64,000 bases of DNA from Patescibacteria group bacterium (GTDB taxonomy: Bacteria > Patescibacteriota > Patescibacteriia > Magasanikbacterales > GWA2-37-8): contig JBAZUP010000002.1 in assembly GCA_041661385.1 (NCBI GenBank), positions 78,670 to 142,669 on the forward strand, written 5' to 3'. Position numbers and translations under genes: made by a program. The notes beneath the pieces are model-generated. The model worked only from the letters and a program-made list of their open reading frames with translations. It had not been told where the DNA came from and made no database searches. Below, one piece after another: positions 9,201-59,581 of this stretch; position 1 is the first letter of the stretch; the number at the start of each line of letters is the position of its first letter.

Positions 9201-11142
9201 TAGCACACTTACCGGTACAGGTGGGGCATATAATATTCCGGTTGGAAGTAATTTTTATCTTAATCCAAATGATTTACCAAATGGTACGCCCCAAACTTAT
9301 TATCATCTGGTAAATAATTTCGGTGAAATGTCGGCTGTAGTGGGTGGTTTTTATCGTGGCAATCCTAATGATTTATTATTATTTTATAGCAGCTCAGATC
9401 AGATTCCAGCAGTAAGTAATAATATCGGTCTAGATGTTAATACTGGGTTATTTAATTATTATTTTAGAGAAGCAAACGTTTATGATTTCCCTGGTTTAGT
9501 TGGCAATTTATTTTCCACAACTCCATCGTTTAAAGCGGGTACTATACAAGTCGATGATATTTGGGATGCGAATATAAGTAATACTTATGTAATTGCCGCA
9601 CCTGCTACTCAGATTCCTGATCCCTATTCTGACCCCATGAACCCCACATATATAGATGTTCCAGCGACAGTTAATACGGGTTTTTGTCCAACCGATTTAA
9701 TTATAAATGGTAGCCACGGTCATTACGATGCGCCATATACATGGCACGCAATTCGTTTTAGGTTTGATCCATACACTCATCAATTAGTTAATGTATACAC
9801 TGCATTTTGTGGGCCCGTTAGAGGGGCAGATGATGTTGTATATCAAATATCTTTCCAAACTCGCGAATGGTGTACTGATTTGGCGAACGATCAAATTGAT
9901 TTAGCGCGATCGAGCGGCCAGCGCGCTATTGCTTGGACCGATCGACTCTTTAGCCTACCAAAGAGTCCGCCATTTTCTGTGCCCGATCTCGGATTTACTT
10001 ACGATACTATTAATCCCGCGTTTGGCAGTATTTCTCCGGTGTTAAATCCGCCTCTAAATCAACCGGTATCTCTCAGTCCCGCTCCGTCGATTGATTGTTC
10101 AAGTTACAATTCAAATACCAGTAACTGCAGTTCGTTTGCGCAACCTCTTATCAACAATTCCCATACTGGATCGGCTTACAGCAGAAATTCCACTTTTCCA
10201 AATGATGTGCCTTATTGTGTTCGAGGTCCTTGTCTAATTCGGAATCCGTTTACTAACGCTTGTATGGCTTATTTTATAGACTGTTCATTGGCACGGCCGC
10301 CAGCAGCCGGTGGAAACAATTATTTGCTTACGGTATTTGCCGCTCATAATAATATTCTAAGTTATCGAACTTCTACCGCTTCTTATGTAAATAATGCTGT
10401 GTCGACAATGCCATTAAATATTACTCAATCCGGAGATTATATTACTGGTGTTCAGCCCAAACCGCCCGAAATTCACCCACTCGGTCGGAGTGTGTCTGGT
10501 ACCGGAAGTAATGCCGGAGTTTATTATGAGGAATTGCCGGCGCTGGGTTTTTCAGTGAACAATTCGAGTACCGGACAAGTGGTGTCCGCTCTTGGCAATG
10601 GGTATAATTTTTCCTTGGATTTCTTCATGTTTGCCGACAAAAATCAAATGCCGATTCGCTCGGTCACGATTGATTGGGGAGATGGGTATGCTCCTGTTCC
10701 GAATGCCGGATCTTTCCGCAATCAGCGTGGTGTTACTTCTACCGCTCCGTTAAAATTGCAGTGTCAGCCTCGGGCGAGCGCCATTGATTTCGGTCATATT
10801 CTTGATCAAACTTGCGACAACGCATATTTCCACGCCGAAAATATTTATTCCTGTGCTGGTTCGGCCGGCAATGTCTGTGCTGGGTTGAATGACAGTAATT
10901 GCTATGTCCCTGCGAATGATGCTCGAAATTTATGTCCTACTGCTTACCAAGCATCCGGTTGTTGTTTCTTCAAACCAAAGGTTAGAATTATAGATAATTG
11001 GGGGTGGTGCAATGGAAGTTGTATTGCAGGAAATGGTGGTTGTTATGATGCCTCGGTGAGTGGTGGAATTAATCAATGTAAAGAAGATCCGCGTTCTTGG
11101 ACAACATTTGGTGGTACAGTTGTTGTACCTAGCAGTAATTAA
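3238..11142 (+). CDS. giant (2634 aa) Cys-rich secreted/surface protein with CBM4/9-like beta-sandwich segment
   Basis: Uninterrupted 7.9-kb ORF. N-terminal signal/TM (LTLVSLFLFVLVFG). Very many paired cysteines. Segment near nt 6270-6640 (WVGGGFRALVS...SYDLTFWASAA...IYLDNIKLVKV) resembles carbohydrate-binding modules. Intrinsic terminator follows directly. Confidence 0.7.
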   Translation: MRDRFRKFSKLTLVSLFLFVLVFGDLVLMNRVNAQPDGSVADFAALDAGGGVPVTDIGASVSRLMSSIKALIKSALISGGIRAASYALRKVAFDSAVWVASGGKGQSPLAHTGGFGGYLKNVGDEAAGTFISEMSSKAGVNLCKVPDIKIDLAIKVGLRTRFGGGPPAKPVCTLSQFTKNWSSGEAWSKYSDPNKLAKSFSSSIIANDSDLGIYIAATEKINNKIIQQKEAATLDRQEGDGIKSLNTLIGDQIKTPAALVKKTVEGLDPAETLKKNEALLNSALAGGDAKVFPAVLSIFLSTLGGTILNNFQTKGILPTGMCAGGIGGPGCSNGSGSYNNPLFNESGEGLTSLGRAAAKSFFNYLTAVKIKEVNRYDLASQLNSCPDSPGIYNCRAGDDLTNAIDQKITIEDAIKLGILDGNKKLIPDDVKTRSISNDLNCYLSAYCLNNVKVLRQLRILPLGFEIAISRSNPNDLSTLKSVVDAFNDKNSSFYHLIDPRWVIKAPEAKCNALVNSASLLGADLPARLQDCVDLQTCVGYDNNGNCIDYGYCTREQNTWKFPADKCSEQFATCAVFQNSKGNSVGYIKRTLDSAYCTQSNDGCTAYSLSRNSLNQWVAPQFPATASANAGIFLNSKAETDCSANSAGCSIFKIASANSNDYLNIKKAPDYLGCYDSNPATPAIDWPQTAIDLGRLSTNSECNNYAKACTADEASCNWYTPKNGGIKLPGRFVPAVVTTSSVIWNDQCDARCEGYNVYREMPSNYSNGQDLAYIIPSSGKTCVAEDEGCSSFTNLSTAVGGVENTEYYSYLRPCITMSEATSTVAKTFITYEGSKENGFQLHTYLMLFNQGTTDVPQNGPAGSPKYFYKDPAELASLNNECTEQRYKDGVASLDCRQFNDKDGNIYYRMISHTIPANEKCTGYRLNDPEFYVDATIVTPDACQTRLGNWTNSGGANVCEMCVQNGEYRNGACIYSGIPTGVQNPAGVSRSCGASADTCRAYKGNAGNNIQTVFSENFETASSSDGWVGGGFRALVSTRVGEYSFEHDGGGAFSKSLTLEPGKSYDLTFWASAASMANVTVSLNNGTANTMGVVSVSGVWRQYHLGTIELKGANPSVQLTFNHAAGDSIYLDNIKLVKVASYLYLVKNSLSVDPVCDSIPNDNLPGEALGCSAYSDPQGRSFYLTNFSFLCREDAIGCTALFDTFNTESTLPEAYHVWIPGAASTTVNGSIPAPYSCKIGDGQNGCYVDIKGYSLSTIRAALNGSVVASTVYIPGDTPSSSPVYLVANKAASCNEVDLGCSLAGKQVFGSNGWQFMTTTIKNVPASYADTLCESQATGCSAFSEGDSISYFKDPSVAGQTLCAYQTDVPVANGTSGTKRQNGWFLKTRVGICSNSSSLTCHENTAASDCGVGTAVCTQLTYDPCYPAEPQTTIGYDLLSFGTTGYQNIVGECPSDQNKCTEIIDHAGNSSNRKNYLIFDDKLTSGDCAGQVSQKLGCALFDQTDNPIKLWHTTSTYAFSETVENVLVSPSSTSNNDANLILKVVPDRSCGEWLSCGSSYSVYDDQTGKYRNVCNRIQRCNGSTCSGVNATYANSILNSDIYTARTTTWAGMDYAGYSLLGFYPVERFDQVNMVTSTDNPDWRLVKKVPCGVISGVSNCTTGSVNIYSCGEPSGYVDGLPCGTESVPGVCMNHICVQPPTGVDTAITQQELADISPSHSCRAYPESDSPFPRTQKIINGGAFSGVHICSEENPNGCECNYRKVSYGDSIIKYWNYSGNDSVDSKIGNLNGNDPVGICLGGTGEGNSCSTDSQCPEGACQFKSGTVRKLLGWKGFCLEKDTSRVLNADPAVNPCLTWFPVESLVGAADIYNQHTEAGTDWHATPHNGGYYCLSSSGTSTTRTARIAFSPSGLFAQDPRQDQCGNRGAFGLADCKTENCGNGCNYQYTREIFSRNIIDIPSQTEILENNTSRAYVAATDLVGIKKEDIGVIKISTLTGTGGAYNIPVGSNFYLNPNDLPNGTPQTYYHLVNNFGEMSAVVGGFYRGNPNDLLLFYSSSDQIPAVSNNIGLDVNTGLFNYYFREANVYDFPGLVGNLFSTTPSFKAGTIQVDDIWDANISNTYVIAAPATQIPDPYSDPMNPTYIDVPATVNTGFCPTDLIINGSHGHYDAPYTWHAIRFRFDPYTHQLVNVYTAFCGPVRGADDVVYQISFQTREWCTDLANDQIDLARSSGQRAIAWTDRLFSLPKSPPFSVPDLGFTYDTINPAFGSISPVLNPPLNQPVSLSPAPSIDCSSYNSNTSNCSSFAQPLINNSHTGSAYSRNSTFPNDVPYCVRGPCLIRNPFTNACMAYFIDCSLARPPAAGGNNYLLTVFAAHNNILSYRTSTASYVNNAVSTMPLNITQSGDYITGVQPKPPEIHPLGRSVSGTGSNAGVYYEELPALGFSVNNSSTGQVVSALGNGYNFSLDFFMFADKNQMPIRSVTIDWGDGYAPVPNAGSFRNQRGVTSTAPLKLQCQPRASAIDFGHILDQTCDNAYFHAENIYSCAGSAGNVCAGLNDSNCYVPANDARNLCPTAYQASGCCFFKPKVRIIDNWGWCNGSCIAGNGGCYDASVSGGINQCKEDPRSWTTFGGTVVVPSSN

Positions 11143-11152: not shown

Positions 11153-11180
11153 AAAAAACCCCGATTCAATCGGGGTTTTT
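11153..11180 (+). terminator. rho-independent terminator of giant gene
   Basis: aaaaaccccgattcaatcggggttttttt: GC stem plus T-run. Confidence 0.7.
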
Positions 11181-11185
11181 TTATT

Positions 11186-11222
11186 ACCGACCTCCATTCC
11201 ATTGGATAGGAAAGAGGTCGGC
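11186..11222 (-). terminator. hairpin downstream of minus-strand GC-islet gene
   Basis: ccgacctc...gaggtcgg, an 8-bp stem directly after the stop of the 11243 gene. Confidence 0.4.
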
Positions 11223-11242
11223 GGTGATGAAGTTGGAGCGAA

Positions 11243-11980
11243 TTACTGGAAAACGCAGGTGTAGAGTCCGGTGAACGGATAGAACGCCTGGGTCATGGAG
11301 ATCAATTGGTTGGTCACCGGTGGGGATGTGTAAACGACCTGACTGGCAGGATCGCGAGCCAAGAGTGCGCCTTCAAGATCATTCATCTTGGCCATACACA
11401 CCCCATTGTTAACATACAGGGTGATGATGCCACCTTGTGGTCCGATTTGAGATGGGCAACCCTTCACCGCGCGGTTGTCGAGGTCACTGCGCCACTGGGC
11501 GCAGATATCGACCGGCGGGTCGTTGACCTTCAGGTTCACTGAGGCCGGGTTGCTGGAATTGCCAGCTTTGTCGGTCGAGATGGCCGTGAGGGGGAAGGAC
11601 CCAGGAGTCGTTGGGATCCACGAGCAAGTGACCGTGAAGCCGCCGTACAACCCGTACGTGACGTCGGTCGTCGTGCAGACGATCGTGTTGTTCACCTTGA
11701 AGTCAACGCGATCGATACCGCTCGTCGGAGCGCCGGGGTCGCTCACCGTGGCGGTGAGCGTGACCGTGGTGCCAACGACGATGTTGGTGTCGGCGGTCGG
11801 CGCCGTGATGACGACGGTGGGTGGGGTGATGTCGGGGTTCTGGACGCACTTGTTCTGGGTAGCGTCCCAGTGCTCGCCGGACGGGCAGGTCGGAGGGGTG
11901 TTCGTGTCTTCGCCGCCGCCACCGCAACCGACGATGAAAGCGACGATGACGACGGCGATGATGACGAAGAACTTCGTCAT
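11243..11980 (-). CDS. GC-rich islet: lipoprotein with Ig-like (Big-type) beta domain
   Basis: Start chosen at MTKFFVIIAVVIVAFIVGCGGGG, a lipobox (track ORF extends to 12079). T/V/P-rich beta-strand repeats (TPPTVVITAPTADTNIVVGTTVTLTATVSD). Region is visibly GC-rich against AT-rich flanks. The many overlapping ORFs on both strands are GC artefacts. Confidence 0.5.
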   Translation of the reverse strand: MTKFFVIIAVVIVAFIVGCGGGGEDTNTPPTCPSGEHWDATQNKCVQNPDITPPTVVITAPTADTNIVVGTTVTLTATVSDPGAPTSGIDRVDFKVNNTIVCTTTDVTYGLYGGFTVTCSWIPTTPGSFPLTAISTDKAGNSSNPASVNLKVNDPPVDICAQWRSDLDNRAVKGCPSQIGPQGGIITLYVNNGVCMAKMNDLEGALLARDPASQVVYTSPPVTNQLISMTQAFYPFTGLYTCVFQ

Positions 11981-12341
11981 CGAGGTGCGACGGATCGGCA
12001 GGGAATTGGTCATGGGCTTCTCCAGGTGCATGGGAATGGTGAGTGGCATCAACTTTGCGTCGAGGGTCTGTTGTTTCATGATGAAACTTCCTTCGGCCTC
12101 AAGGGCCCGTTGTGGCCCTTTGGGCCGTTAAACTTCTACAGACATTTTCAGAATTCTTTGAAGCTAAGGCAGAAATAGAAAATAATGGATTATTTACTAC
12201 CTATTTCCACCTTAGCTTTTCCAACTTCATAGTGGTTATTATTGGTCAAAAAATGACTAAAATAACACATTGTAAAGAGCAAAAGATGTAATAAATACAT
12301 CATTGTTTTTCAACCCAATTCTATCATAAGAAAAACATATA

Positions 12342-12460: not shown

Positions 12461-15400
12461 ATGACGATAGAAAATATCGTAAAAAAGCTTGTTTCATGGA
12501 AAAAAATAACGCGAAATCAAAAAGCGATTTTTTTGTCGACTTTATTTTTATTTATATTTGGATTATTTTTTGCTGTTCTTCCCGCCTCAGCCCAAACGAA
12601 TACATTTGTCGGTAACAGTTTTTTTGACGCGCTTCTTATCAGCATGTCTCGGGTCATGATGGTAGTAGCACAAACCTGTTTACAGCTGCTCATGTTTGTT
12701 TTAACTTTCATTATTCAAATTGCCGCCTACAATAACTACTTAGATTCCACTGCCGTAAACACCGGTTGGATTTTAATCAGAGATCTTACCAATATGGTTT
12801 TTGTGGTGGCTTTGCTCGCCATTGCTTTCGGCACGATTCTTGGTATCGAACACTACGAATGGAAGCATATGTTGTTCAAGTTGGTTTCTGCCGCAATTTT
12901 AGTAAATTTCAGCCGCATCATCTGTGGCATTCTCATTGATATTTCTCAAGTAGTGATGATGACATTTTTAAATGGTATCGCTGCCACGATGGGCGGTAAT
13001 CTTATTCGCACTTTTAGTTTGGAAAAAATTCAAAGTTTTAGGCCTGGTGTCTCGGGCGCTCTCATTGACCCAGCCACCGTATTTATTACCGCCATGGCGG
13101 CGGTGTTTATTTCGGTCACGATATTGGTTGTCATGGGTATCATGCTCGGCATGCTTGTTGGGCGTATGATAGTGCTTTGGGTACTCATTGTACTTTCTCC
13201 AGTCGCTTTTGTGCTCGGGGTTTTACATCAGACCGAACACTATGCTTCAGAGTGGTGGGGTGAATTTGGTAAAAATGTTATAACCGGCCCGGTTTTAATA
13301 TTTTTTATTTGGCTTACTTTGGTTACGGTCGGAAGTGGAGTTATGGACCAAGAAATGAATAATGCTACCACTGGCGTTCCAAAACCAGAAACTATCAATG
13401 TCGGTATTGCTGATGTCTTATCCGGTGGTAAATTAGTAAATTTTGCTATTGCGATTGGCATGCTTTTGGTTGGTTTGCGGGTTACTCAGCATCTCGGTGG
13501 TATTGGCGCCGAATGGACCGGCAAAGCGGTAAGTATTGGTAAGAAAGCCGCAATGGCGGTGAGCGGTGTCGCACTCGCGCGTGATATGGCAAAATCTGCC
13601 GGTGGAGCGGTTCGGGATTATGGTCAACAAAGTTACAAAAATCTTGTTTCTGCACCGAAGGCGTTGGCTTCAATGGGTTTATCAAAAATAAAAATGACAC
13701 GGGATAATATTGCACAAGGCTTTGAAAAAGGTGGTAAAAAAATGATTGAATTAAAAAGTTTAAGAGATCGAAAGATTATTTCTGAGAAAGAATATCAGGC
13801 GCGTGTTAAGGGTGATGAAGTTGCATTAGGTCAAGTATATAATGAGAAAGCATTTTCACAATCTCGCGAAGAAGGCGATAAATATCGCGCTCAATTGGAA
13901 GCTGAAAATAAATTACTAAAACCGGCCGACCGACTTTCAAAGTCTCAAATTGCTCTCAAGGTTATGCAAAGGCAACAAGAAGTAATTGCTAATGTTCAAA
14001 GAGAAAAAGAAAAAGCATTAGCGGACAGTCCAAAAAAAGGTGGAGTATTTCAGTCTACAGCGGCAGGTCGCGTGGCTGGGAGTGTTTTGGGTTCGATTTT
14101 TCAATCTCAGTCCAGGGCGACTTCAAGAGCTGAAAATTGGGCACAGGCCGCTGAAAGCCTGAAAGTACGAGCTGGAAACGAAGAAAGTACAAGTGCTACG
14201 TTGGGTGGTCAGGTTAAGTTGAAACAAGGTGTACTTGAACACGCCTCCGTAGAAAGAGGTAAGGCTAAATCGCAACAGAAAAAAGATGAAGAAGCCCAGG
14301 CACTTATTGCAACGGAAGACGAAACATTCCATGAGTTAGAAGAAGGTGCAAGAAAGGCGAAGGCTGCTGGAACTGTGGCGCAAGCCTATGTTTCTGGTCA
14401 TGAGGCGTTAGCTCAACAAAAAGCTGATCAGAAAGCTGGTGTATACCGGGCTAAAACAAAACAAGAAATAGAAGAAGGCCTCGCGCGAGCTAGAGATAAT
14501 AGTGGCGTTGCCTTAGAAAGAGAAAAACTTATTTCCGAACCATTGATGGTCCGCGGTAATAAAATAGATTATATTGATCATACTCCGGAAAGTTTAAAAC
14601 TAGCCGAGAGTCATATTGATTCATTGGTCAGTGATGAGGGTGAGCGTGAAAAATTAAAGCAAAAAGCCGAAGCAATGCATATGGAGGCTTCCAGAAAGAG
14701 AGAAGAGGCAATCGGAGTACAGCGTAAAGAAGCGGTTGCTGCCCAAGAAACTGCTGCCGGTGCAAAAGCAAAAGAACAATTAGCGAAAGAAGGTGATTAT
14801 AGATTGAGAGAGCAAAGAATCACCGGCTTTACTGCAGAAATGAATCAGATTCAGGACAAGCTTACCGCAGAACGGCAAAATGAATTATTAACTTCAATTA
14901 GAAATTTATTAGAATCAGAAGTTGGCCTGACTAGGCAACAACAAATTGCTTCTTTTCAGGCGGGCAATAAAATGCAAGAAGATAGAACTGGGGGCATAAA
15001 AGAGCGTGAGGCTTTAGCAGCAAGGAGAGAATTGATGGCTTCGGCGGATAGTCGCCGGGAATTAAGGGAGACAGAACAACAAAAAGCACAAAATAAGCAA
15101 CAAGAAGAAAGATTGAGTGGAATAGGTGAAAGAGAAGCTGGGCGTGCAAAACGAGATTTGTTAGCAACTACTGGAGGACAAAATGAGCAGGCGAAAATTT
15201 ATCGCACAAGAGGACAAGAGGAGCTCGATAAAAGCTTGGCGGAAGATCCGCAAATAATGATGCAAGCGAGAGAAAAAGCTGCCATTTATAGACGTAATGG
15301 GGATCCCCTAAGGGCAGAAGCGACACTTAAATCAGCTTCAGCTCAAGTTGATAAAAAATATTCGGAATTATTTTCTGGCCTAACTTATGATGACCGAATG

Positions 15401-17510: not shown

Positions 17511-17512
17511 TT

Positions 17513-18964: not shown

Positions 18965-18965
18965 T

Positions 18966-19406: not shown

Positions 19407-19415
19407 TTTAAAAAC

Positions 19416-20102: not shown

Positions 20103-20105
20103 AAT

Positions 20106-22004: not shown

Positions 22005-22010
22005 AAATAT

Positions 22011-22601: not shown

Positions 22602-22603
22602 TT

Positions 22604-23585: not shown

Positions 23586-23734
23586 TTATTCAACAAAAAA
23601 TATTACGGTTTTTTGTGATACTTCAAAAAATAATCGCTTCTTTTTTTTACCAAAGTAATTTGATAAAAATAAGAAGGGTTGGGAACGGCGCATGAGAAAG
23701 CGCCGTTCCCATAGATCACACCCTTTCATTGCCT

Positions 23735-24097
23735 TTAGCCACGCCGACGTGATGACGTTCGACTCCATCCGCGGAACAGGATGCCAGCTCCCAGCACGAA
23801 GCCGAAGTTGTACCATCCTCCATTGTTGTGGACTTCGTAGAAGCTGACTGTGTCGTAGAAGAGCGAGATGATGAACGTGATCCCACAGATCAAACCATGC
23901 CAGAGACCAAGCCAGAACCCGGCGATGTTGCCGTCGGACGAGGCGGTGTGGGTTGCCGGATTGGGACCGGCAGCACAACCGCTCATCTGGAATAGGGTGA
24001 TGACCAGTAGAACAGGGGCGTACTTCTTGAGGTTCTTCACGGGCTTTCTCCTTGGGGTCCAAAAGACCCACGCAAGTGATTTTTGTAGACAGGACAT
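23735..24097 (-). CDS. GC-rich islet: small lipoprotein/membrane protein (about 100-120 aa)
   Basis: Lipobox-like LFQMSGCAAG and a TM segment (GLICGITFIISLF). GC-rich block 23690-24110. An 11-bp perfect hairpin (gggaacggcgc...gcgccgttccc, 23679-23708) lies just past the stop. The overlapping 179-aa Arg-rich ORF is an alternate-frame artefact. Confidence 0.4.
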   Translation of the reverse strand: MSCLQKSLAWVFWTPRRKPVKNLKKYAPVLLVITLFQMSGCAAGPNPATHTASSDGNIAGFWLGLWHGLICGITFIISLFYDTVSFYEVHNNGGWYNFGFVLGAGILFRGWSRTSSRRRG

Positions 24098-26714: not shown

Positions 26715-26741
26715 AAAAATCTCCCACGTACCAATAAGTAC
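26713..26741. terminator. bidirectional hairpin terminator
   Basis: ctcccacgtac-caataa-gtacgtgggag flanked by an A-run and a T-run. Confidence 0.6.
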
Positions 26742-27016
26742 GTGGGAGTTTTATATTTGTGGGGGTTACCCCCCTAAACCGCACCCAAGAAGATGTATTG
26801 CAGGTAAGGATGAGCCGGAGCCGACCATTCCAACAACACATCTCCATGCTTGTCGTGGATACGGGAACCTGATGAAAAATTTTTTCGGCAGATTCCCTAA
26901 TCCAGTTCAGAGCTTTTCCGGAGTATAGAGTGTCTTGGTTGTCACCATTTCGCGCCGCGATAATTATCTGGAAGGCGCTGTTTCTGGTGTGCGTTCTAGG
27001 GTCACTAGAACTGTTA

Positions 27017-27045
27017 AGGATACCATATATAGGATGGGTTGTCAA
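27017..27045 (-). promoter_or_regulatory. second copy of the TTGACA-N17-TATcCT promoter module (minus strand)
   Basis: Minus strand reads gtttacTTGACAacccatcctatatatggTATCCT, nearly identical in architecture to 12342-12370. It points into the 26745-27010 region. Confidence 0.35.
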
Positions 27046-30514: not shown

Positions 30515-30663
30515 AAAGTATCTTTATCTATAATATGTAGTATAGAGGATATTTAAAAAAATGCAAATTTAGACAATCGTTTTTTGATGTGTTAGACTGC
30601 AAACAACTGATCGGGGATAAGAAGATATTTCAAACCTAACACCCAATCAGCGAAAGGAAGCAC

Positions 30664-30858
30664 GTGAACGACGGCGACCCGAAGTCAGCAGCACTCGGTG
30701 ACCTCCGAAGAGCGGTATTCAGCGGGTCTCCGCACGATATCGAGATGCAGACGGATCGGTGCCGTGAATACGGTGCTACTCGTGAAGAAGTGGACAGCAT
30801 CGTGAACAACAGTCATCCCGCCCGGTATCGGCGGTTCACCACCATGCGTGGTTCGTAG
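30664..30858 (+). CDS. GC-rich islet: small hypothetical protein (GTG start)
   Basis: SD gaaaggaag 4 nt upstream of the GTG. GC-rich block. 9-bp perfect hairpin atcccccgg...ccgggggat right after the stop (30869-30901). Confidence 0.35.
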   Translation: MNDGDPKSAALGDLRRAVFSGSPHDIEMQTDRCREYGATREEVDSIVNNSHPARYRRFTTMRGS

Positions 30859-31027
30859 GAGAAGAAATATCCCCCGGCGTGCAATTGCGCGTCCGGGGGA
30901 TCATTATTTATTCCTTCTTTGTATTATCAGGCTATTGACACTTTAAAAAAATTACAAACAAAATCGGTCGAATTCTTCATTGTTGAAGCAGTTTTATCGG
31001 AGTACAATTAAATAGTAGCTTAATTAA

Positions 31028-42283: not shown

Positions 42284-42536
42284 ATTTTCCTTTTATTTTT
42301 ATTCTAACACACCAGGGACGCATTTACAAGAAAATGGGACACAAACATAAAATCGACTACATTTCGCGAATAAGATAGGGCTTTTGACTTATTGTTTATT
42401 TCGGCGTATAATTATGCGACCACATTTTGGAGAAAGCGGTTTGTTAAGCAAAATATTGTTAATAAACCGAGTTTCCTAAAAAGAAACTCCTTTGTGCAAT
42501 GATGCATGAAGCCGAAACGAAGAAAGGGAAACACCA

Positions 42537-43475
42537 ATGCACCGTTCACTGTTGTTTGTTGTTCTCTTCATCACGGCCGTCGCAGTCGGCTGTGGTCGGC
42601 AGGGTTCGCCGGATGTGGCACAGGACCTTGGTGGCGCAAGCGCCTTCAAGGCTGTGCAGAATCTCAACCCCGGCCTCACCATCTACAAGGCATCCGGAGG
42701 CGAGCTCCGCGGAAGCTATCGCGCCAACAACAGCGCGATCCACTTCCAAGCCTTGCGCGGAGAGAATCTTGTGCTCGGCGTCAACACGGTCGATCCGGAT
42801 GCTCCCGCCTACGCCGTTTCCGTCCGGATCATCGACCAGGAAGGAAACCCTGTTGCGATCGCCATCGGCGATAGCGATGAAAGGATTTCCGCCTGGCAGG
42901 AGAAAGTGGAGGGACTCGGCACGGGTTCCAACCCCGACCTCAGTGAAACCTTCGTGCTCGCGCAGGAGGCCACAGATGTCCTGTCCCAGACCGTGACGAG
43001 CGGATTCGACGAGGAGATCAAGACCTTGAAGCGACGCAGCTTCACAGCTGCACCCGTCGCAAACGCACCCGGCCAGTCGAGCAAGATGCAGGCGCTTTCC
43101 TCGACGTGGAGGTACTGGCTCCGGATGTTCCGGAAGGATGCCAACTTCAACGGCAACTTCGCCGATCACTCCGCCGTCATCGTGAATGTGACCAAGCCAG
43201 ACGGAACGATCCTGAACTACGTCACCTGCAACCACGGTACCTGCGCGGACGATCCGTCCATGCAGTTCCGGTGTCAGAACACGGTCTACCCGGCAAGCCA
43301 GCGTCCGTTCGCGATCTTGCCGTGCGATTCGGTTTCTTCCTATGGCTTCTTCTCGGGCCAACACGTCTGCAACGATGATACTCTGGTGCAAGTCAACATG
43401 GTCGTGTACGGCAATAGCAGTCTCACGACCTGCACCGACTCGTCGTTGCGCCTCTGGGCACCTTCTTGCAGCTAG
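42537..43475 (+). CDS. GC-rich islet: secreted lipoprotein (312 aa)
   Basis: Lipobox LFITAVAVGCG, SD gaaagggaaa upstream. GC-rich block 42480-43545. 15-bp perfect hairpin gatgtcggcgctcgc...gcgagcgccgacatc after the stop. The minus-strand 310-aa Arg-rich ORF is an antisense artefact. Confidence 0.55.
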   Translation: MHRSLLFVVLFITAVAVGCGRQGSPDVAQDLGGASAFKAVQNLNPGLTIYKASGGELRGSYRANNSAIHFQALRGENLVLGVNTVDPDAPAYAVSVRIIDQEGNPVAIAIGDSDERISAWQEKVEGLGTGSNPDLSETFVLAQEATDVLSQTVTSGFDEEIKTLKRRSFTAAPVANAPGQSSKMQALSSTWRYWLRMFRKDANFNGNFADHSAVIVNVTKPDGTILNYVTCNHGTCADDPSMQFRCQNTVYPASQRPFAILPCDSVSSYGFFSGQHVCNDDTLVQVNMVVYGNSSLTTCTDSSLRLWAPSCS

Positions 43476-43609
43476 CAAGTCGGCCTAACCAGTAGGCGAT
43501 CACAAAGGATGTCGGCGCTCGCTCCTCGCGAGCGCCGACATCGCAACTTTTACACATATTTGTTATAATACCCACATATTTATAATAATACTTATTTATA
43601 ATAATACTT

Positions 43610-44759: not shown

Positions 44760-44960
44760 ATGGATTTTTCCTGGGAAACCAAATCATCGCCGGTCATTTT
44801 GCTGGCGGTAGCAATTCTCGGACCTGTAATCTTGTTAGGGTTCGTGATCATCGGACCAATTCATCTGGTTCTTCGCATGTTCGGGAGGCGCGGTTTCTAC
44901 ACCTTGAAGAACGGAGTAACCCATACCTGGTCCCTCGAGGGCGCCCTCGAACCGCGATGA
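44760..44960 (+). CDS. GC-rich islet: small membrane protein (66 aa)
   Basis: SD aaggagg 8 nt upstream of ATG 44760. One TM segment (PVILLAVAILGPVILLGFVIIGPI). Palindromic hairpin gagctcg...cgagctc after the stop. Confidence 0.4.
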   Translation: MDFSWETKSSPVILLAVAILGPVILLGFVIIGPIHLVLRMFGRRGFYTLKNGVTHTWSLEGALEPR

Positions 44961-45079
44961 AGTTTCTCCATTTGAGCTCGTTTCGACCATCGTGTCGGAG
45001 CGAGCTCTTCTATTAATAATTACCTTTCTTAATTACAATGAGGTATAATTATTTAAACTAAATTTAAATTATAATTTAT

Positions 45080-48327: not shown

Positions 48328-48414
48328 ATTAAATATTATGCGGTCGGTAGGTGCGACTACCGACCGGTTTGTCCACTTTTGATCTCACTCGCACGTAATG
48401 TTGGCCGCGGTTGC

Positions 48415-48579
48415 TTAGAATATGCGGAAAACGTTCTTGCGCTCCCTGTTGCGATTGGAGTTCGTCTTCTTGCCCATGTCGATCCAGGACGAGTTCTTCT
48501 TCGCCGAGTTGCTCGGCTTCTTCTCGTGCTTGTCGCGATTCTTCTTGTAGTTGCCGGTGTTTTGGTTCCCGTGCGCCAT
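48415..48579 (-). CDS. GC-rich islet: small basic protein (54 aa)
   Basis: Hand-translated MAHGNQNTGNYKKNRDKHEKKPSNSAKKNSSWIDMGKKTNSNRNRERKNVFRIF. Perfect SD aaggagg 7 nt upstream. Hairpin cggtcggtag...ccgaccg downstream at 48341-48368. Below the ORF-track cut-off. Confidence 0.4.
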   Translation of the reverse strand: MAHGNQNTGNYKKNRDKHEKKPSNSAKKNSSWIDMGKKTNSNRNRERKNVFRIF

Positions 48580-48735
48580 TACAACCTCCTTGTTAATCCG
48601 TCAATTATTTGACGGAGTTACTGTAACGTTAGCAAAAAATGATCAAAAGGTCAATTATCGCATGAGTCACTTTTCATAAAGAAAAGGTCGTGATATAATA
48701 ATTTCGTGCAATTTTTGAATTGATGTAGTGGAAAC

Positions 48736-51822: not shown

Positions 51823-52012
51823 TTATAATTATTAAAGACCGAATAACCCAGGTTTTGCGGGCGTTGGGTTGACAAAAGGTCTTTTTTTTGTTATTTTAAG
51901 TTATTAATTTTCGATATTGATTTGGGAATATTGTTCCCAAATCAATGTCCGAAAATGGACAGATGTAATTGTTCTTTTTATCGCTGTCTAACTCTAACCA
52001 AGGAGTAGCGCC

Positions 52013-52342
52013 ATGACCACAACCAAAAATCATCGCGTCCTTATTGTTGCAAGCTTGACCGATGGAGACCCCACTCCCGAGCAGCTGAAAGACGCCGTGT
52101 TCTTCGACAGAAAAGTCTCTTTTTTCTATACCATGCCGAGCGAGGCCGCGGCCGAGTTCCACATGCTTCCGGAGGGGACTATCGAAGTTAGGTTGTACAA
52201 GGCAATGCAGACCAAGCCGGGTGCTTTTTTGCTCCGGGGTGTGTACTATCACCCCGACGGCCAGAAGCCCCTCACCGTGGACGGGATGTATTATACGAAT
52301 CCGGTCTCCGGCTTCCTCGATCTCGGAAAAACCTTTGTCTAA
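52013..52342 (+). CDS. GC-rich islet: small protein, paralog 1 of 3 in tandem
   Basis: SD aaggag upstream. Shares VSFFYTMPSEAAAEF / DGMYYTNP with the next ORF (VVFTYTTDSEAARAL / NGTYYPV). Confidence 0.4.
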   Translation: MTTTKNHRVLIVASLTDGDPTPEQLKDAVFFDRKVSFFYTMPSEAAAEFHMLPEGTIEVRLYKAMQTKPGAFLLRGVYYHPDGQKPLTVDGMYYTNPVSGFLDLGKTFV

Positions 52343-52359
52343 TTATTTGGAGAACAGAA

Positions 52360-52662
52360 ATGAACAAACTTTTTCTTCTCCATGTCGTTAAGGGGATAAA
52401 CCCGTCTGTGGATCATTTGCTGAACAAAACGGAAAGGGTGGTTTTCACCTATACGACTGATTCTGAGGCGGCAAGAGCGCTCAAGATTCCTGATCATGGT
52501 CAAATGTTTTTCAATTTGACCTGTTGCATTCTTAGCTCCGCCCTAATCAACGTCTTCGTTGTAAAGGGCAAAAGCATCGATGACCGACTTCTAATGAACG
52601 GGACTTATTACCCGGTCAAAGAGGTTGGCAAACTGGCTGTTTGCATGAACGTGCCGAAATAA
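52360..52662 (+). CDS. GC-rich islet: small protein, paralog 2
   Basis: SD ggaga upstream. See paralog 1. Confidence 0.4.
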   Translation: MNKLFLLHVVKGINPSVDHLLNKTERVVFTYTTDSEAARALKIPDHGQMFFNLTCCILSSALINVFVVKGKSIDDRLLMNGTYYPVKEVGKLAVCMNVPK

Positions 52663-52685
52663 ACATTTCAGCATTGGGAGACTCC

Positions 52686-52982
52686 ATGTCGCATTCGAGA
52701 AAAATCCACATTCTTGACCTTACCACGGAAGTGGATGCAGAGAAGGCATTTGCTTCTTTGTTCAAGGGAATACCGATGGAAATCGGCTTCAAAACCGACA
52801 AAAAAACTGCCCAAGCAATTGGGATCGAGGTTCGTGGCAATCTCAATGTTTCCTGGTGCCACATTACCAGAATGGCGGAGATGTTTGTTTTCGAAGGAGC
52901 GTGCTCGCGCGGATTCAGCGTGCGCTGCTGGTATTGCCCAGATCGGTCCATCCGCCGCATTGAGCTCAAGGAAAAGAGTTAG
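52686..52982 (+). CDS. GC-rich islet: small protein, possible paralog 3
   Basis: Start chosen at MSHSRKIHILD with SD gggag (track ORF begins 52641). Similar size, weaker similarity. Hairpin ctgccga...tcggcag after the stop. Confidence 0.35.
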   Translation: MSHSRKIHILDLTTEVDAEKAFASLFKGIPMEIGFKTDKKTAQAIGIEVRGNLNVSWCHITRMAEMFVFEGACSRGFSVRCWYCPDRSIRRIELKEKS

Positions 52983-53138
52983 ATTGTTGTAAACAGGCCT
53001 GCCGACCTGAACTTCGGCAGCAGTATATTGGAGTATAAATATTGACAAACTCCCGGGTTTATACTATAGTAATGCTGCTCTCGCCCTAAATGGGGTCAAA
53101 AAAAGTCACAGTTTTATCTAAACTGAAAATAATACATT

Positions 53139-55162: not shown

Positions 55163-55417
55163 ATGGCACTCAAGCCTCATCACAGAAAGCAGCGTGAGCG
55201 CATTCTCGCGGACGTACTTCTTCGGGAGGCCGAGGCAGAATTGCCGCTTGGCCACAAGGTTCACATGTTCCGGCCGAAGCCGGAATTCCTGATGATTCAA
55301 GGAGACACACTCGAGGAGTGGAGGAAGGCTGTGCACCCGTACTATGCACAACTCATCGCCGACGCAGTGCGGGAACTCGCAGCCATGAGGAGTGCCGGCA
55401 TCATGCTGGCCAGTTAG
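55163..55417 (+). CDS. GC-rich islet: small hypothetical protein (84 aa) occupying the position where rimM is expected
   Basis: GC-rich block 55130-55480. 12-bp perfect hairpin gggcgtcccgac-tttt-agtcgggacgccc after the stop. Confidence 0.35.
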   Translation: MALKPHHRKQRERILADVLLREAEAELPLGHKVHMFRPKPEFLMIQGDTLEEWRKAVHPYYAQLIADAVRELAAMRSAGIMLAS

Positions 55418-55446
55418 CCGTTTCACGGCCATTCGTTCTTTTCCAC

Positions 55447-55478
55447 CAGGGCGTCCCGACTTTTAGTCGGGACGCCCT
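55447..55478 (+). terminator. perfect 12-bp hairpin after the islet gene
   Basis: gggcgtcccgacttttagtcgggacgccc. Confidence 0.5.
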
Positions 55479-57299: not shown

Positions 57300-58862
<1,563 letters not shown>

Positions 58863-59030: not shown

Positions 59031-59069
59031 AAATGGAATTTAAAATTTGTTTTATTAAGATGTTGATTC

Positions 59070-59098
59070 TTGACTTTTCGGTCGTTTTGGGGTATGTT
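59070..59098 (+). promoter_or_regulatory. sigma70-like promoter TTGACT-N17-TATGTT for the 59132 gene
   Basis: ttgacttttcggtcgttttggggtatgtt. SD aaagga precedes the ATG. Confidence 0.35.
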
Positions 59099-59131
59099 GA
59101 AAATGCCCAAGCGGGCCGAAAGGAATGACAC

Positions 59132-59455
59132 ATGCAATTACTGCTAATAGTCATTTACATTCTGGCCCAGATTTTGGGAAACGGTGGAAGCGCTCAAAAA
59201 AGCGCTCCGGCCTCTGCGCCCATAAAGGCACAGCTCAACTACGCAATTCTCAGGTCTGATTGCAAGGCAATCCCCGTCGATGCTGCCGGTAGGCAGTTCA
59301 TGGAGATTAATCTTCAAGAATTAGACCCGGAGACGGACGAAAGCAAATCAAAACAATCGTGCAAAATTGGCGCGAACACATCAATCATTAACCCCGTAAA
59401 GGCGGTGTGGATCAAAAAAAAGGAGGTACCGCGACCGGTAGTTCATTATATTTAG
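59132..59455 (+). CDS. small secreted/TM protein (107 aa) between 16S and tRNA-Val, islet-like
   Basis: N-terminal hydrophobic segment (LLLIVIYILAQILG). 15-bp perfect palindrome ggaaggtggcgcgcta-g-ttagcgcgccaccttcc after the stop (59465-59500). Confidence 0.4.
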   Translation: MQLLLIVIYILAQILGNGGSAQKSAPASAPIKAQLNYAILRSDCKAIPVDAAGRQFMEINLQELDPETDESKSKQSCKIGANTSIINPVKAVWIKKKEVPRPVVHYI

Positions 59456-59581
59456 GAGGACCTGGAAGGTGGCGCGCTAGTTAGCGCGCCACCTTCCACA
59501 CAATACACAATACCCGGTGTATTTTTGTTTGGCTTTAGCTTGACTTTTTGACAACTTTTGTATATAATTTTCAGTACTTAT

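What the first reader, a model, noticed from the sequence alone, without database searches (positions are those of the whole stretch)
11186..12130. Recurring GC-rich islets in an AT-rich genome: about ten self-contained cassettes (Shine-Dalgarno + small exported protein + long perfect hairpin)
Sharply GC-enriched short blocks (about 55-60% by eye against about 37% flanks) occur at:
- 11.19-12.13 kb
- 23.69-24.11 kb
- 30.65-30.90 kb
- 42.48-43.55 kb
- 44.70-45.01 kb
- 48.34-48.60 kb
- 52.00-53.03 kb
- 55.13-55.48 kb
- 59.13-59.50 kb
- probably 26.75-27.01 kb

Each carries one small ORF, or a tandem trio. Each usually has a strong SD (aaggagg, aaggag, gaaaggaag). The product is often a lipoprotein or secreted protein (IVGCGGGG, VGCG, MSGCAAG lipoboxes). 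Each ends with a long perfect GC hairpin of 9-15 bp, often without a T-tract. Native genes here mostly lack strong SDs and use short-stem plus T-run terminators.

The uniform cassette design points to a common origin. Candidates are horizontal acquisition from a high-GC donor such as an actinobacterial host, phage morons, or a mobile small-gene cassette system using the palindromes as recombination sites. Several sit at operon junctions, e.g. where rimM is expected.
Basis: seen in the sequence. Interest (0 to 1): 0.8.

Follow-up and report, generated by a model that had tools for sequence, protein, structure and literature searches.

The report
Persistently GC-rich small genes in Patescibacteria
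An AT-rich candidate-phyla-radiation bacterium carries about nine small, self-contained GC-rich genes with strong ribosome-binding sites and long GC hairpins; at least three are old, vertically inherited genes that have stayed GC-rich, not recent imports or mobile cassettes.

Summary
The window is a Ca. Magasanikbacteria (Patescibacteria) contig with 41% GC. Native genes have GC3 of 0.24-0.43 and mostly no Shine-Dalgarno (SD) sequence.

Nine of the ten listed blocks are gene units:
- GC3 is 0.53-0.79.
- All 11 ORFs have an SD (mean duplex -8.2 vs -1.5 kcal/mol for native genes, p=1e-6).
- Eight of the nine units end in a strong GC hairpin. The five longest perfect GC hairpins in the window lie at islet 3' ends and lack T-tracts.
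- The tenth block (26.75-27.0 kb) has no SD-led ORF and looks like a structured non-coding RNA.

- The units share no sequence, hairpin motif or flanking repeats, so they are not one cassette family.
- They are not chimeras.
- Islets 1, 4 and 7 have syntenic counterparts in relatives whose flanking proteins are only 44-81% identical.
- The islet 1 and 4 orthologs keep GC3 of 0.72-0.80, the SD and the hairpin with compensatory changes, although synonymous sites are near saturation. Simple amelioration of a recent high-GC import does not fit.

Best reading: these are moron-like autonomous units, possibly of ancient foreign origin, whose GC-rich, SD-dependent, hairpin-bracketed design is actively maintained, probably at the mRNA level. 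Recent transfer remains possible for the lineage-specific small islets.

The parts
11187..11221 (-). Islet 1 3' hairpin (CCGACCTC ... GAGGTCGG), directly upstream of the native bidirectional terminator at 11153-11181
   Evidence: -23 kcal/mol including the neighbouring stem. A hairpin at the same position with a different sequence occurs in ortholog L098.
11243..12079 (-). Islet 1 CDS: 278-aa lipoprotein (lipobox IVGC) with an Ig-like Big_7 domain; GC3 0.79
   Evidence: A syntenic ortholog in L098 has 39% aa identity and GC3 0.79. HMMER against 1.84 billion representatives finds a small family of about 245-aa proteins plus domain matches.
12087..12126 (-). Islet 1 SD (GAAGGAAG, 12087-12094) and 5' UTR double hairpin (12095-12126)
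   Evidence: UTR fold z = -4.3. The motif GGCCC..GGGCCAC..ACGGCC..AGGCCG is conserved in L098.
23680..23711 (-). Islet 2 3' hairpin, 12 bp perfect (TGGGAACGGCGC / GCGCCGTTCCCA)
23735..24040 (-). Islet 2 CDS: 101-aa membrane lipoprotein (MSGC lipobox), GTG start, SD AAGGAGAAAG; GC3 about 0.68
   Evidence: The family has more than 3,300 members and matches phrog_30702 at 3e-22. Homologs lie in the 61% GC genome L012 and in Patescibacteria locus L016.
30652..30898 (+). Islet 3: SD GAAAGGAAG, 64-aa ORF (30664-30858, GTG start, GC3 0.65), imperfect GC palindrome 30871-30898
   Evidence: Weak sub-threshold CMD-family match only. This exact protein is not called in public annotations.
42384..42412 (+). 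Islet 4 promoter-like site (TTGACT-17-TATAAT, 11 of 12), followed by a 5' UTR with two hairpins
   Evidence: UTR fold z = -3.4. The UTR hairpins are conserved in L005 and L007.
42537..43475 (+). Islet 4 CDS: 312-aa Cys-rich lipoprotein (AVGC lipobox), GC3 0.76, invariant CNHGTC and HVCNDD motifs
   Evidence: Syntenic orthologs in L005, L006 and L007 have 71% identity and GC3 0.72-0.79. AlphaFold pLDDT 84, with no PDB relative.
43508..43542 (+). Islet 4 3' hairpin, 15 bp perfect, no T-tract
   Evidence: Position is conserved, with compensatory changes in L005 and L006 and a degenerate version in L007.
44760..45007 (+). Islet 5: 66-aa small membrane protein (44760-44960, SD AAGGAGG, GC3 about 0.57) and 14-bp hairpin 44974-45007
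48341..48615 (-). Islet 6: 5' hairpin 48598-48615, SD AAGGAGG (48586-48592), 54-aa very basic protein (48415-48579), 10-bp perfect hairpin 48341-48366 just upstream of the native DUF2268 gene
   Evidence: The whole 1.2 kb between the DHH gene and SMC is absent in relative L001.
51869..53026 (+). Islet 7: three-gene operon of paralogs. Promoter-like site 51869-51897, 5' UTR hairpin 51908-51954, CDSs 52013-52342, 52360-52662 and 52686-52982 (GC3 0.68, 0.53, about 0.56), weak terminal hairpin about 52996-53021
   Evidence: Two homologs with SD of -14.6 kcal/mol lie at the same SMC-rpsP junction in L002.
55163..55478 (+). Islet 8: 84-aa ORF (55163-55417, GC3 0.68) and 14-bp perfect hairpin 55448-55478. 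It lies between the KH-gene terminator (55034-55061) and the trmD promoter.
   Evidence: No homolog in 81 related loci.
59070..59498 (+). Islet 9: promoter-like site 59070-59098, 107-aa secreted protein (59132-59455, GC3 0.53), 17-bp perfect hairpin 59463-59498. It lies between the 16S rRNA gene and tRNA-Val.
26721..27045 (-). Listed 'islet 10' is not a protein cassette. It is a candidate structured non-coding RNA of about 265 nt, with a promoter-like site at 27045-27017 and a canonical terminator at 26748-26721.
   Evidence: no SD-led ORF; MFE z = -5.4; 0 of 200 shuffles fold as well; promoter and terminator; no Rfam family

Best explanation
The islets are nine unrelated, autonomous small-gene transcription units in a Ca. 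Magasanikbacteria genome.

Each unit has the same layout:
- an AT-rich sigma-70-type promoter;
- a leader that is often structured and ends in a strong Shine-Dalgarno sequence;
- a GC-rich ORF, or three paralogous ORFs in islet 7;
- in eight of the nine units, a long GC hairpin without a U-tract.

Native genes here are AT-rich, mostly lack an SD, and use A-tract/stem/T-tract terminators. The islets therefore form a second architectural class of gene.

Shown:
- The class difference is real.
- The units sit between the terminator of one conserved gene and the promoter of the next.
- Islets 1 and 4 are vertically inherited. Their orthologs keep the GC-rich composition, the SD and the hairpins at divergences where synonymous sites are close to saturation. 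Islet 7 has diverged homologs with strong SDs at the same junction in a relative.

Inferred:
- The units probably entered the lineage by horizontal transfer, like phage morons. This happened long ago for islets 1, 4 and 7 and possibly later for the lineage-specific small ones.
- Their composition is held in place by selection on the transcript.
- A GC-rich, heavily base-paired mRNA capped by 5' and 3' stem-loops would be long-lived.
- Such an mRNA would need an SD to recruit the ribosome, unlike the unstructured AT-rich native leaders.
- The hairpin would act as terminator and 3'-end protector.

The products are mainly envelope or secreted proteins of unknown function.
For: - Composition: islet GC3 is 0.53-0.79 and native GC3 is 0.24-0.43.
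- SD: islet mean is -8.2 and native mean is -1.5 kcal/mol, p = 1.2e-6, and stronger than shuffled upstream regions. The 16S 3' end retains CCUCC.
- Hairpins: nine perfect GC hairpins occur against 0.1 expected, and the five longest lie at islet 3' ends without T-tracts. Energies are -19 to -38 kcal/mol.
- Islet 4 orthologs in L005, L006 and L007 are 71% identical. The flanks are 63% (S8 protease), 75% (AAA) and 37% identical. Orthologs have GC3 of 0.72-0.79 in genomes of 41-43% GC, with the SD kept and the hairpin kept through compensatory changes.
- At four-fold sites the islet 4 orthologs are 46% identical against 30% expected, with GC4 of 0.75-0.82. Native neighbours have GC4 of 0.25-0.35.
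- Polarised synonymous changes in islet 4 number 25 GC-to-AT and 12 AT-to-GC. From a pool that is about 78% GC, this implies an equilibrium GC near 0.6, not 0.3.
- The islet 1 ortholog in L098 is 39% identical and the flank is 44% identical over the global alignment (56% over the best local match). Four-fold sites are equally saturated in both (0.35 against 0.28-0.29). GC4 is 0.76 and 0.63 in the islet against 0.40 and 0.39 in the flank. The 5' UTR hairpins, SD and 3' hairpin are all conserved.
- Islet 7 has two homologs with SDs of -14.6 kcal/mol at the same junction in L002.
- The same architecture occurs elsewhere. L002 has an unrelated 90-aa gene at the KH-trmD junction. L035 has a 125-aa lipoprotein with GC3 of 0.89 there. 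L008, L032 and L066 have further examples.
- In 47 related loci (455 kb), ORFs with GC3 at least 0.25 above the locus median have a strong SD in 50% of cases, against 13% for typical ORFs.
- Islet coding regions fold more stably than their own synonymous-codon shuffles. Mean z is -1.66 (p = 0.012) against -0.23 for native genes.
- Leaders of islets 1, 4 and 9 are significantly structured.
Against: - The selection-on-mRNA step is inference. There are no expression or half-life data.
- The synonymous-shuffle signal is modest (Mann-Whitney p = 0.04, nine genes per class) and comes mainly from three genes.
- 5' hairpins are not universal. Islets 3 and 5 lack one.
- The best promoter-like sites for islets 1 and 2 imply AT-rich leaders of 140-200 nt, so the GC-rich block is not the whole transcript.
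- The saturation argument rests on 54-136 four-fold sites per comparison and a crude two-state model. A very GC-rich ancestor with slow amelioration is disfavoured but not excluded. L005 shows net GC-to-AT decay of 16 against 5.
- Conservation is shown for only three of the nine units. Islet 8 has no homolog in 81 related loci, and islets 3, 5, 6 and 9 have no known homologs.
Confidence: 0.55

Rival explanations
1. Recent horizontal acquisition from high-GC, SD-using donors, such as a host bacterium, that has not yet ameliorated.
For: - The islets have atypical composition, an SD and non-native terminators.
- Islet 8 is absent from 81 related loci at a junction that is usually 70-120 bp.
- Different GC-rich genes occupy the same junction in L002 and L035.
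- The islet 2 family is widespread and occurs in a 61% GC genome next to an integrase.
- A 45%-identical islet 4 homolog has native composition in a 54% GC genome.
- GC3 is graded from 0.53 to 0.79, which could reflect different ages.
- Horizontal transfer into Patescibacteria is documented (PMC12455944).
Against: - Islets 1 and 4 are syntenic orthologs across relatives with 44-75% flank identity, and they stay at GC3 of 0.72-0.80 with synonymous sites near saturation. Islet 7 has diverged homologs at the same junction in L002.
- The homolog in the 61% GC genome has only a weak SD, so the SD is not simply imported.
- No close hit (above 82% identity) to any high-GC genome was found for any islet.
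Confidence: 0.2
2. GC-biased gene conversion. These loci would be recombination hot spots, for example surface-protein genes exchanged between strains, and biased heteroduplex repair would drive them GC-rich.
For: - GC-richness persists at synonymous and UTR positions in orthologs.
- Several products are surface proteins.
- It is established knowledge, not checked in the paper library here, that recombining bacterial genes tend to have higher GC3 (Lassalle et al. 2015).
Against: - The GC boundaries are sharp, within tens of nucleotides, and coincide with the SD and the hairpin, whereas conversion tracts are kb-scale.
- Gene conversion does not explain the specific SD motif or the compensatory maintenance of the stems.
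- The islet proteins are not more diverged than their flanks.
- Cytoplasmic small proteins are affected too.
Confidence: 0.1
3. A mobile small-gene cassette system, like integron cassettes, in which the terminal palindromes are recombination sites.
For: - The layout recurs: promoter-poor GC block, ORF, then palindrome.
- Units lie at intergenic junctions, and the same junction holds different cargo in relatives.
- A large serine recombinase lies at 37178-38677.
Against: - The hairpins share no core motif or length class.
- No GTTRRRY / RYYYAAC cores were seen by eye at the hairpin ends, and there are no tandem arrays. Pfam on about 30 of the roughly 47 native ORFs found no tyrosine integrase.
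- Flanking direct repeats do not exceed chance. The one 10-nt repeat around islet 9 is the shared -35 promoter box.
- Orthologous hairpins drift by compensatory change, which is RNA-stem behaviour.
- Islets 1, 4 and 7 are positionally stable over deep divergence.
Confidence: 0.03
4. Assembly chimeras or contaminating high-GC reads stitched into an AT-rich contig.
For: The window comes from a metagenome-assembled genome. Read data were not available.
Against: - The same islets occur at 100% identity on ENA MEGAHIT contigs (L004, L011) and on the 148.9-kb NCBI/JGI contig. Identical proteins occur in a second MAG.
- Orthologous GC-rich islets occur at syntenic positions in assemblies from unrelated samples.
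- The boundaries coincide with functional signals.
Confidence: 0.01

Closest known systems
Phage 'morons' (Juhala et al. 2000; reviewed in PMC3594210)
   Same: - Single-gene, independently transcribed units with their own promoter and terminator.
- GC content differs from that of the surrounding genes.
- Inserted between two otherwise adjacent conserved genes.
- Products are often envelope or lipoproteins.
   Different: - Here the flanks are housekeeping chromosomal genes (SMC, rpsP, KH, trmD, 16S rRNA), not a prophage.
- Only islet 2 matches a phage protein family.
- At least three units are ancient and positionally fixed.
- The compositional difference is maintained rather than decaying.
Horizontally acquired genomic islets with amelioration (Lawrence and Ochman model)
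   Same: Atypical base composition and codon usage, patchy phyletic distribution for some units, and location at operon boundaries.
   Different: - Acquired DNA in AT-rich genomes is usually more AT-rich, not more GC-rich.
- Amelioration predicts convergence to host composition. Islets 1 and 4 have not converged despite near-saturated synonymous divergence.
Integron gene cassettes (ORF plus attC)
   Same: A short, largely promoterless-looking GC block containing one ORF with an RBS, followed by an inverted repeat.
   Different: There are no attC cores, no extrahelical-base architecture, no IntI and no array. Each unit has its own promoter, and the palindromes are perfect and unrelated to one another.
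mRNA stabiliser elements, such as the Bacillus thuringiensis cry-gene 3' stem-loop and STAB-SD, and the ompA 5' hairpin (from my own knowledge, not checked in the paper library)
   Same: A strong SD-like sequence in the leader, a 5' stem-loop, and a long 3' stem-loop without a U-tract bracketing a transcript that encodes an abundant exported protein.
   Different: Those systems do not involve whole-ORF GC enrichment. No stability data exist here.
GC-rich islands that mark structured RNA genes in AT-rich genomes (Klein, Misulovin and Eddy 2002; GC-IGR screens; from my own knowledge)
   Same: GC-rich blocks stand out in an AT-rich genome. This applies to the 26.75-27.0 kb block (fold z = -5.4).
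   Different: Nine of the ten blocks are clearly protein-coding. The evidence is the GC3 pattern, an SD at the correct spacing, lipoboxes, and protein-level homologs.

Membership tests
Phage moron | Independent transcription unit with its own promoter and terminator | tested here: met
   - Promoter-like sites lie upstream of islets 4, 7 and 9 and of islets 1 and 2.
- Strong 3' hairpins follow eight of the nine units.
- These are consensus matches only. No transcript data exist.
Phage moron | GC content differs from that of the surrounding genes | tested here: met
Phage moron | Resides in a phage or prophage genome between conserved phage genes | tested here: not met
   - The flanks are SMC, rpsP, KH, trmD, 16S rRNA, ClpP and similar genes.
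- PHROG matches were found for islet 2 only.
- Viral-contig scans found one distant relative of islet 4 and none for islets 1 and 8.
Integron gene cassette | attC site with conserved R''/R' cores (RYYYAAC / GTTRRRY) and an imperfect stem with extrahelical bases | tested here: not met
   The hairpins are perfect, 10-17 bp, and share no core. No GTTRRRY cores were seen by eye at the stem ends; no pattern search was run.
Integron gene cassette | Tandem array next to a tyrosine integrase (IntI) and attI | tested here: not met
   The units are dispersed over 48 kb. The only recombinase found is a large serine recombinase at 37178-38677. About 30 of the roughly 47 native ORFs were scanned against Pfam.
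Recently acquired HGT island | Atypical composition and codon usage relative to the host genome | tested here: met
Recently acquired HGT island | Absent from close relatives at the same site, or patchy distribution | tested here: inconclusive
   - Met for islet 8 and for the islet 6 block.
- Not met for islets 1, 4 and 7, which are syntenic in relatives.
- Untested for islets 3, 5 and 9.
Recently acquired HGT island | Composition decays towards the host's with time (amelioration) | tested here: not met
   Islet 1 and 4 orthologs retain GC3 of 0.72-0.80 at near-saturated synonymous divergence.
Recently acquired HGT island | Identifiable donor lineage with closely similar sequence | tested here: not met
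   The best non-self hits are 71% (islet 4, in Patescibacteria relatives), up to 82% over part of the protein (islet 2, mixed taxa), and 41% (islet 1).
Structured non-coding RNA gene (GC island in an AT-rich genome) | No coding signal; significant, conserved secondary structure; own promoter and terminator | tested here: inconclusive
   - For 26721-27045 (-): fold z = -5.4, promoter and terminator present, no SD-led ORF, no Rfam family, and no relatives available to test covariation.
- For the other nine blocks the coding signal is clear, so this is not met.

The most novel reading that the evidence does not exclude
Some Patescibacteria run two gene architectures side by side:
- The bulk of genes are AT-rich, lack an SD and have canonical terminators.
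- A small conserved class is kept GC-rich by selection on the transcript. These genes are SD-dependent and hairpin-bracketed, giving structured, long-lived mRNAs for envelope or secreted proteins in cells with very few ribosomes.

On this reading, single-gene GC islets here are a stable, selected feature, not a footprint of recent transfer. Composition-based detection of horizontal transfer would misread them.
Probability: 0.3. Interest if true: 0.8.

Novelty: new variant of a known kind. Interest (0 to 1): 0.62.

Why it matters
- Atypical GC content is routinely read as evidence of recent horizontal transfer. Here, single-gene GC-rich islets in an AT-rich genome have stayed GC-rich, with conserved SDs and compensating hairpins, across divergences where synonymous sites are nearly randomised. 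This challenges the amelioration assumption and implies a force that maintains composition gene by gene.
- The strict pairing of GC-rich coding sequence with SD-led initiation, in a genome whose native genes largely lack SDs, gives a natural system for asking when a bacterial mRNA needs an SD.
- It also points to a set of probably highly expressed envelope or secreted proteins in an uncultured symbiotic lineage, including one with a confident fold that has no solved relative.
- Practically, composition-based island finders and MAG decontamination tools would flag these real, native genes as foreign or contaminant.

Tried and rejected
- **Known RNA families.** Rfam at gathering and at E<=1 thresholds found nothing in any islet.
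- **Pfam and NCBIfam on the islet proteins.** Only Big_7 in islet 1 was significant. The CMD-family match in islet 3 was weak and below threshold.
- **Phage origin.** PHROGs matched islet 2 only. tblastn against phage genomes found islet 2 relatives in Cellulophaga phages and one uncultured phage. Viral-contig scans found one 26%-identical relative of islet 4 on a 65% GC contig, and none for islets 1 and 8. This is not enough to call the set phage morons.
- **Islet 8 as a divergent RimM, or as homologous to the L002 gene at the same junction.** There was no similarity (BLASTP E = 0.68), and no gene lies between KH and trmD in most relatives.
- **Function of islet 4.**
  - The PDB profile search found nothing.
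  - The best Foldseek match against the PDB had E = 0.1.
  - The AFDB library was unavailable.
- **Target-site duplications or shared boundary motifs.** None exceeded chance.
- **Exact empty-site comparison for islet 8.** The intergenic DNA of relatives is too diverged to define the insertion ends.
- **'GC-rich block equals the whole transcript.'** Rejected. The best promoter-like sites for islets 1 and 2 leave AT-rich leaders of 140-200 nt.
- **The 38690-38990 GC-rich spacer as a structured RNA.** The fold z-score was 0.
- **Failed or truncated runs.**
  - One synonymous-shuffle run timed out. It was repeated on the small ORFs only, so islets 1 and 4 were not tested this way.
  - One encoding-contig look-up found no record.
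  - Two homolog loci returned no DNA.
Full report
**Source and context.** The window is part of a 148.9-kb contig of a Patescibacteria MAG. The NCBI locus tags are WC725_*, and a near-identical second MAG is named Candidatus Magasanikbacteria (WCT43_*). The window contains the following genes:
- a 16S rRNA gene (57300-58860) and five tRNAs;
- a type-IV-secretion-like cluster with VirB4/TraG-type ATPase, PrgI and TraC-like genes;
- SMC, rpsP, a KH-domain protein, trmD, ClpP and a subtilase;
- a large serine recombinase next to tRNA-Asn.

Overall GC is 41.2%.

- Measured GC of the ten listed blocks is 0.59, 0.54, 0.59, 0.59, 0.47, 0.53, 0.49, 0.57, 0.49 and 0.48. The window mean is 0.41, and 150-nt windows have an SD of 0.074.
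- Four blocks are striking, two are clear and four are marginal on bulk GC. Blocks of 0.50-0.53 also occur inside native genes.
- Third-codon-position GC separates the classes better. Native ORFs have GC3 of 0.24-0.43 and islet ORFs 0.53-0.79.
- The SD claim gives the sharpest contrast. All 11 islet ORFs pair with the anti-SD at -6.1 to -11.9 kcal/mol (mean -8.2). For 47 native genes the mean is -1.5 and most are weaker than -4. Mann-Whitney p = 1.2e-6. The islet SDs also beat shuffles of their own upstream sequence, which average -4.4.
- The 16S 3' end retains CACCUCCUUUC, so SD pairing is available but little used by native genes.
- The hairpin claim holds. Nine perfect GC-rich hairpins of at least 9 bp occur where local shuffles give 0.1. 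The five longest (10-17 bp) lie 8-31 nt after the stops of islets 2, 4, 6, 8 and 9 and lack T-runs. The native ones in that list at 26721 and 53532 carry T-runs.
- Islets 1, 3 and 5 have imperfect but strong 3' stems.
- Three products have lipoboxes (islets 1, 2, 4), one has a signal peptide (islet 9) and one is a small membrane protein (islet 5). The rest look cytoplasmic.
- The tenth block (26.75-27.0 kb) is different. It has no SD-led ORF. It has a promoter-like site, a canonical terminator and a fold z-score of -5.4, so it is more likely a structured RNA.

**Not chimeras.**
- The islets occur, 100% identical and in the same context, on separately deposited ENA MEGAHIT contigs (L004, L011). 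I could not establish whether that assembly used different reads.
- Identical proteins are annotated in a second MAG.
- Orthologous GC-rich islets occur at syntenic positions in assemblies from unrelated samples.

**Not one family, and not a cassette system.**
- Apart from the three paralogs of islet 7, the proteins are unrelated to one another.
- The hairpin sequences share no motif.
- Flanking direct repeats do not exceed chance. The single 10-nt repeat around islet 9 is the shared -35 box CTTGACTTTT of two promoters.
- There are no attC-like cores, arrays or tyrosine integrase among the ORFs scanned. No islet matches a known RNA family.

**Where they sit.** I scanned metagenomes with the KH protein and obtained 80 related loci, to which I added L002.
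- In most of the loci where trmD lies downstream of KH on the same strand, it follows within about 70-120 bp. A conserved terminator comes first and then the trmD promoter. No rimM is present.
- In the window, islet 8 lies exactly between that terminator and that promoter.
- Relative L002 has a different, unrelated 90-aa GC-rich gene at the same junction, with an SD (GGGGAGGTG) and a 12-bp perfect hairpin.
- L035 has a 125-aa lipoprotein there with GC3 of 0.89, an SD and a GC hairpin. L022 has an AT-rich small gene there.
- The SMC-rpsP junction behaves the same way. It is usually 65-200 bp, but it holds the islet 7 trio in the window, two homologs in L002, and other GC-rich SD-led ORFs in L032 and L066.
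- The units are therefore moron-like insertions at neutral terminator-promoter gaps. I use 'moron' as defined in PMC3594210.

**The key result: age and persistence.**

*Islet 4 (312-aa lipoprotein).*
- It has orthologs of about 71% identity in three contigs, L005, L006 and L007. L005 and L006 carry the same protein. All are from genomes of 41-43% GC.
- The contexts are homologous. In L005 and L006 the AAA ATPase is 75% identical and the subtilase 63%. The downstream gene is 37% identical in all three. The upstream leader hairpins are also conserved.
- In every one the gene is a GC island of 0.58-0.59, with GC3 of 0.72-0.79, a strong SD (-9.5), and a hairpin at the same place whose sequence differs by compensatory changes.
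- At four-fold sites of conserved residues, orthologs are only 46-54% identical against 30-32% expected if independent. GC4 remains 0.72-0.82. The neighbouring native genes are 32-38% identical against 27-29% expected, with GC4 of 0.25-0.35.
- Polarised synonymous changes number 25 GC-to-AT and 12 AT-to-GC. From a pool that is about 78% GC, this implies an equilibrium near 0.6 rather than 0.3. The counts are small and polarisation was by parsimony.

*Islet 1 (278-aa Ig-domain lipoprotein; the finding's own coordinates).*
- It looked like an orphan in the word-indexed search.
- An exhaustive HMMER search found full-length relatives.
- One of them lies in L098 in the same arrangement. It sits next to a homolog of the 1256-aa neighbour (44% identity over the global alignment, 56% over the best local match) and next to the same A-tract/T-tract bidirectional terminator.
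- At 39% protein identity, four-fold sites are as saturated as in the flank (0.35 against 0.28-0.29 expected in both).
- GC4 is nevertheless 0.76 and 0.63 in the islet against 0.40 and 0.39 in the flank. Whole-gene GC3 is 0.79 in both.
- The 5' UTR double hairpin, the SD and the 3' hairpin are all retained.

*Consequence.* A neutral relaxation model that uses the identity decay seen in the flanks predicts GC4 of roughly 0.45-0.55 at best, even from an ancestor near 100% GC. The composition therefore appears to be actively held, although the site counts are small.

**Other evidence on origin.**
- The islet 2 protein belongs to a family of more than 3,300 members and matches phrog_30702.
- A member in a 61% GC, 5.2-Mb genome has ordinary composition for that genome and only a weak SD.
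- A member in another Patescibacteria genome (47% GC) again has GC3 of 0.68 and an SD-like AAAGGA.
- A 45%-identical islet 4 homolog has native composition in a 54% GC genome that does not look like a Patescibacteria genome.
- An ancient foreign origin is therefore plausible. Horizontal transfer into Patescibacteria is documented (PMC12455944). However, the SD and the high GC appear to be properties these genes have while resident in Patescibacteria, not simply baggage from the donor.

**Generality.**
- In 47 related loci (455 kb, 508 ORFs), ORFs with GC3 at least 0.25 above the locus median are rare. They carry a strong SD in 50% of cases against 13% for typical ORFs. This rests on few cases.
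- The window is about four-fold enriched in such ORFs: 10 of 64 against 19 of 444, Fisher p = 0.0014.

**Mechanism.**

*Shown.*
- These are autonomous units with a distinct initiation and termination design.
- That design is conserved in the orthologs of islets 1 and 4.

*Inferred.*
- Selection acts on the transcript.
- A GC-rich, heavily paired mRNA needs an SD to recruit 30S subunits, whereas native AT-rich leaders do not.
- 5' and 3' stem-loops together with GC-rich coding sequence would protect the mRNA from RNases. The U-less hairpin would serve as terminator and 3' stabiliser.

*Support.*
- Islet ORFs fold more stably than their own synonymous-codon shuffles. Mean z is -1.66 (p = 0.012) against -0.23 for native genes. 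Mann-Whitney p = 0.039.
- The leaders of islets 1, 4 and 9 are significantly structured.
- The stems are maintained by compensatory change.

*Against.*
- The signal is modest.
- 5' hairpins are not universal.
- The best promoter-like sites for islets 1 and 2 leave AT-rich leader segments.
- No expression data exist.

*Rivals.*
- GC-biased gene conversion is a rival, but it does not explain the sharp boundaries, the SD motif or the compensatory stems.
- Recent transfer remains viable for islets 3, 5, 6, 8 and 9, for which no orthologs were found.

**Function of the products.** This remains unknown. Islet 4 gives a confident AlphaFold model (pLDDT 84, pTM 0.80) with invariant CNHGTC and HVCNDD motifs. 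It has no solved structural relative.

**Verdict.**
- The preferred explanations (recent high-GC import, common origin, palindrome-mediated mobility) do not fit the best-studied islets.
- What remains is a less ordinary phenomenon: single-gene GC islets with a foreign-looking expression design that are old, positionally stable and compositionally maintained.

Noticed in passing
window 26721-27045 (- strand): The intergenic block between the VanW-domain gene and ClpP has a promoter-like site (TTGACA-17-TATCCT with TG), a canonical T-tract terminator, no SD-led ORF, and a predicted fold far more stable than shuffles (z = -5.4; 0 of 200 shuffles fold as well). No Rfam family matches. It is a candidate novel structured RNA of about 265 nt.
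   Followed up: partly
window 60172-60239 and 44283-44339 (- strand); L001 2590-2659, 3443-3512, 4068-4137: A conserved repeated element of about 75 nt (…CTCACTCGCTCACTTCGTTCGCTCTCACGAAA-stem-loop-TTCGTGGACTTTCCTCGGCA) is present twice in the window and three times in a relative with 75% SMC identity. The inner stem-loop has a different sequence in the two genomes but still pairs. It is not a tRNA and matches no Rfam family. It could be a small RNA or a dispersed repeat.
   Followed up: partly
window 44371-44413: A 21-bp perfect AT-rich palindrome (CATAATAAATAAGCACACCAT / ATGGTGTGCTTATTTATTATG) lies next to one copy of the repeated element above. It is the longest perfect inverted repeat in the window.
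   Followed up: no
window 37118-38677: A large serine recombinase (499 aa; Resolvase, Recombinase and Zn-ribbon domains) lies directly beside tRNA-Asn. In relative L001, tRNA-Asn abuts the DHH gene next to SMC. The 9.3 kb between them in the window (recombinase, subtilase, AAA ATPase, islets 4 and 5, small ORFs) may therefore be a rearranged or integrated segment. However, the subtilase, AAA and islet 4 genes are also linked in L005 without a recombinase.
   Followed up: partly
window 12461-23236: A type-IV-secretion or conjugation-like cluster: 1256-, 433- and 483-aa proteins with no Pfam match, PrgI-like, TraC-like, and a VirB4/TraG-type ATPase. It is bracketed by islet 1 on one side and by tRNA-Phe, tRNA-Pro and islet 2 on the other. 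A giant 2634-aa ORF (3238-11142) lies just upstream.
   Followed up: no
window 57300-60086: The 16S rRNA gene is not followed by a 23S rRNA gene within the window. It is followed by a protein-coding islet (islet 9), tRNA-Val, a small ORF and tRNA-Ile. This is an unlinked or interrupted rRNA operon.
   Followed up: no
window 53571-54557: An arginase-family gene lies between rpsP and the KH-protein gene. It is absent there in L002 and in most of the 81 related loci, but a homolog is present in L020 (60% identity). It is an AT-rich lineage-specific insertion at another junction of the same conserved gene string.
   Followed up: partly
window 55129-55160: In the islet 8 leader, an anti-SD-like CCUCCACCC lies a few bases upstream of the SD (GAGGG) and can pair with it. 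This could be an SD-sequestering hairpin and hence a translational switch.
   Followed up: no
L098 2102-3727: In the relative that carries the islet 1 ortholog, two further GC-rich ORFs lie between the ortholog and the 1256-aa gene homolog: a 342-aa Ig-domain protein with GC3 of 0.68, and a 197-aa ORF in a 0.61-0.68 GC block. The islet neighbourhood has expanded there.
   Followed up: no
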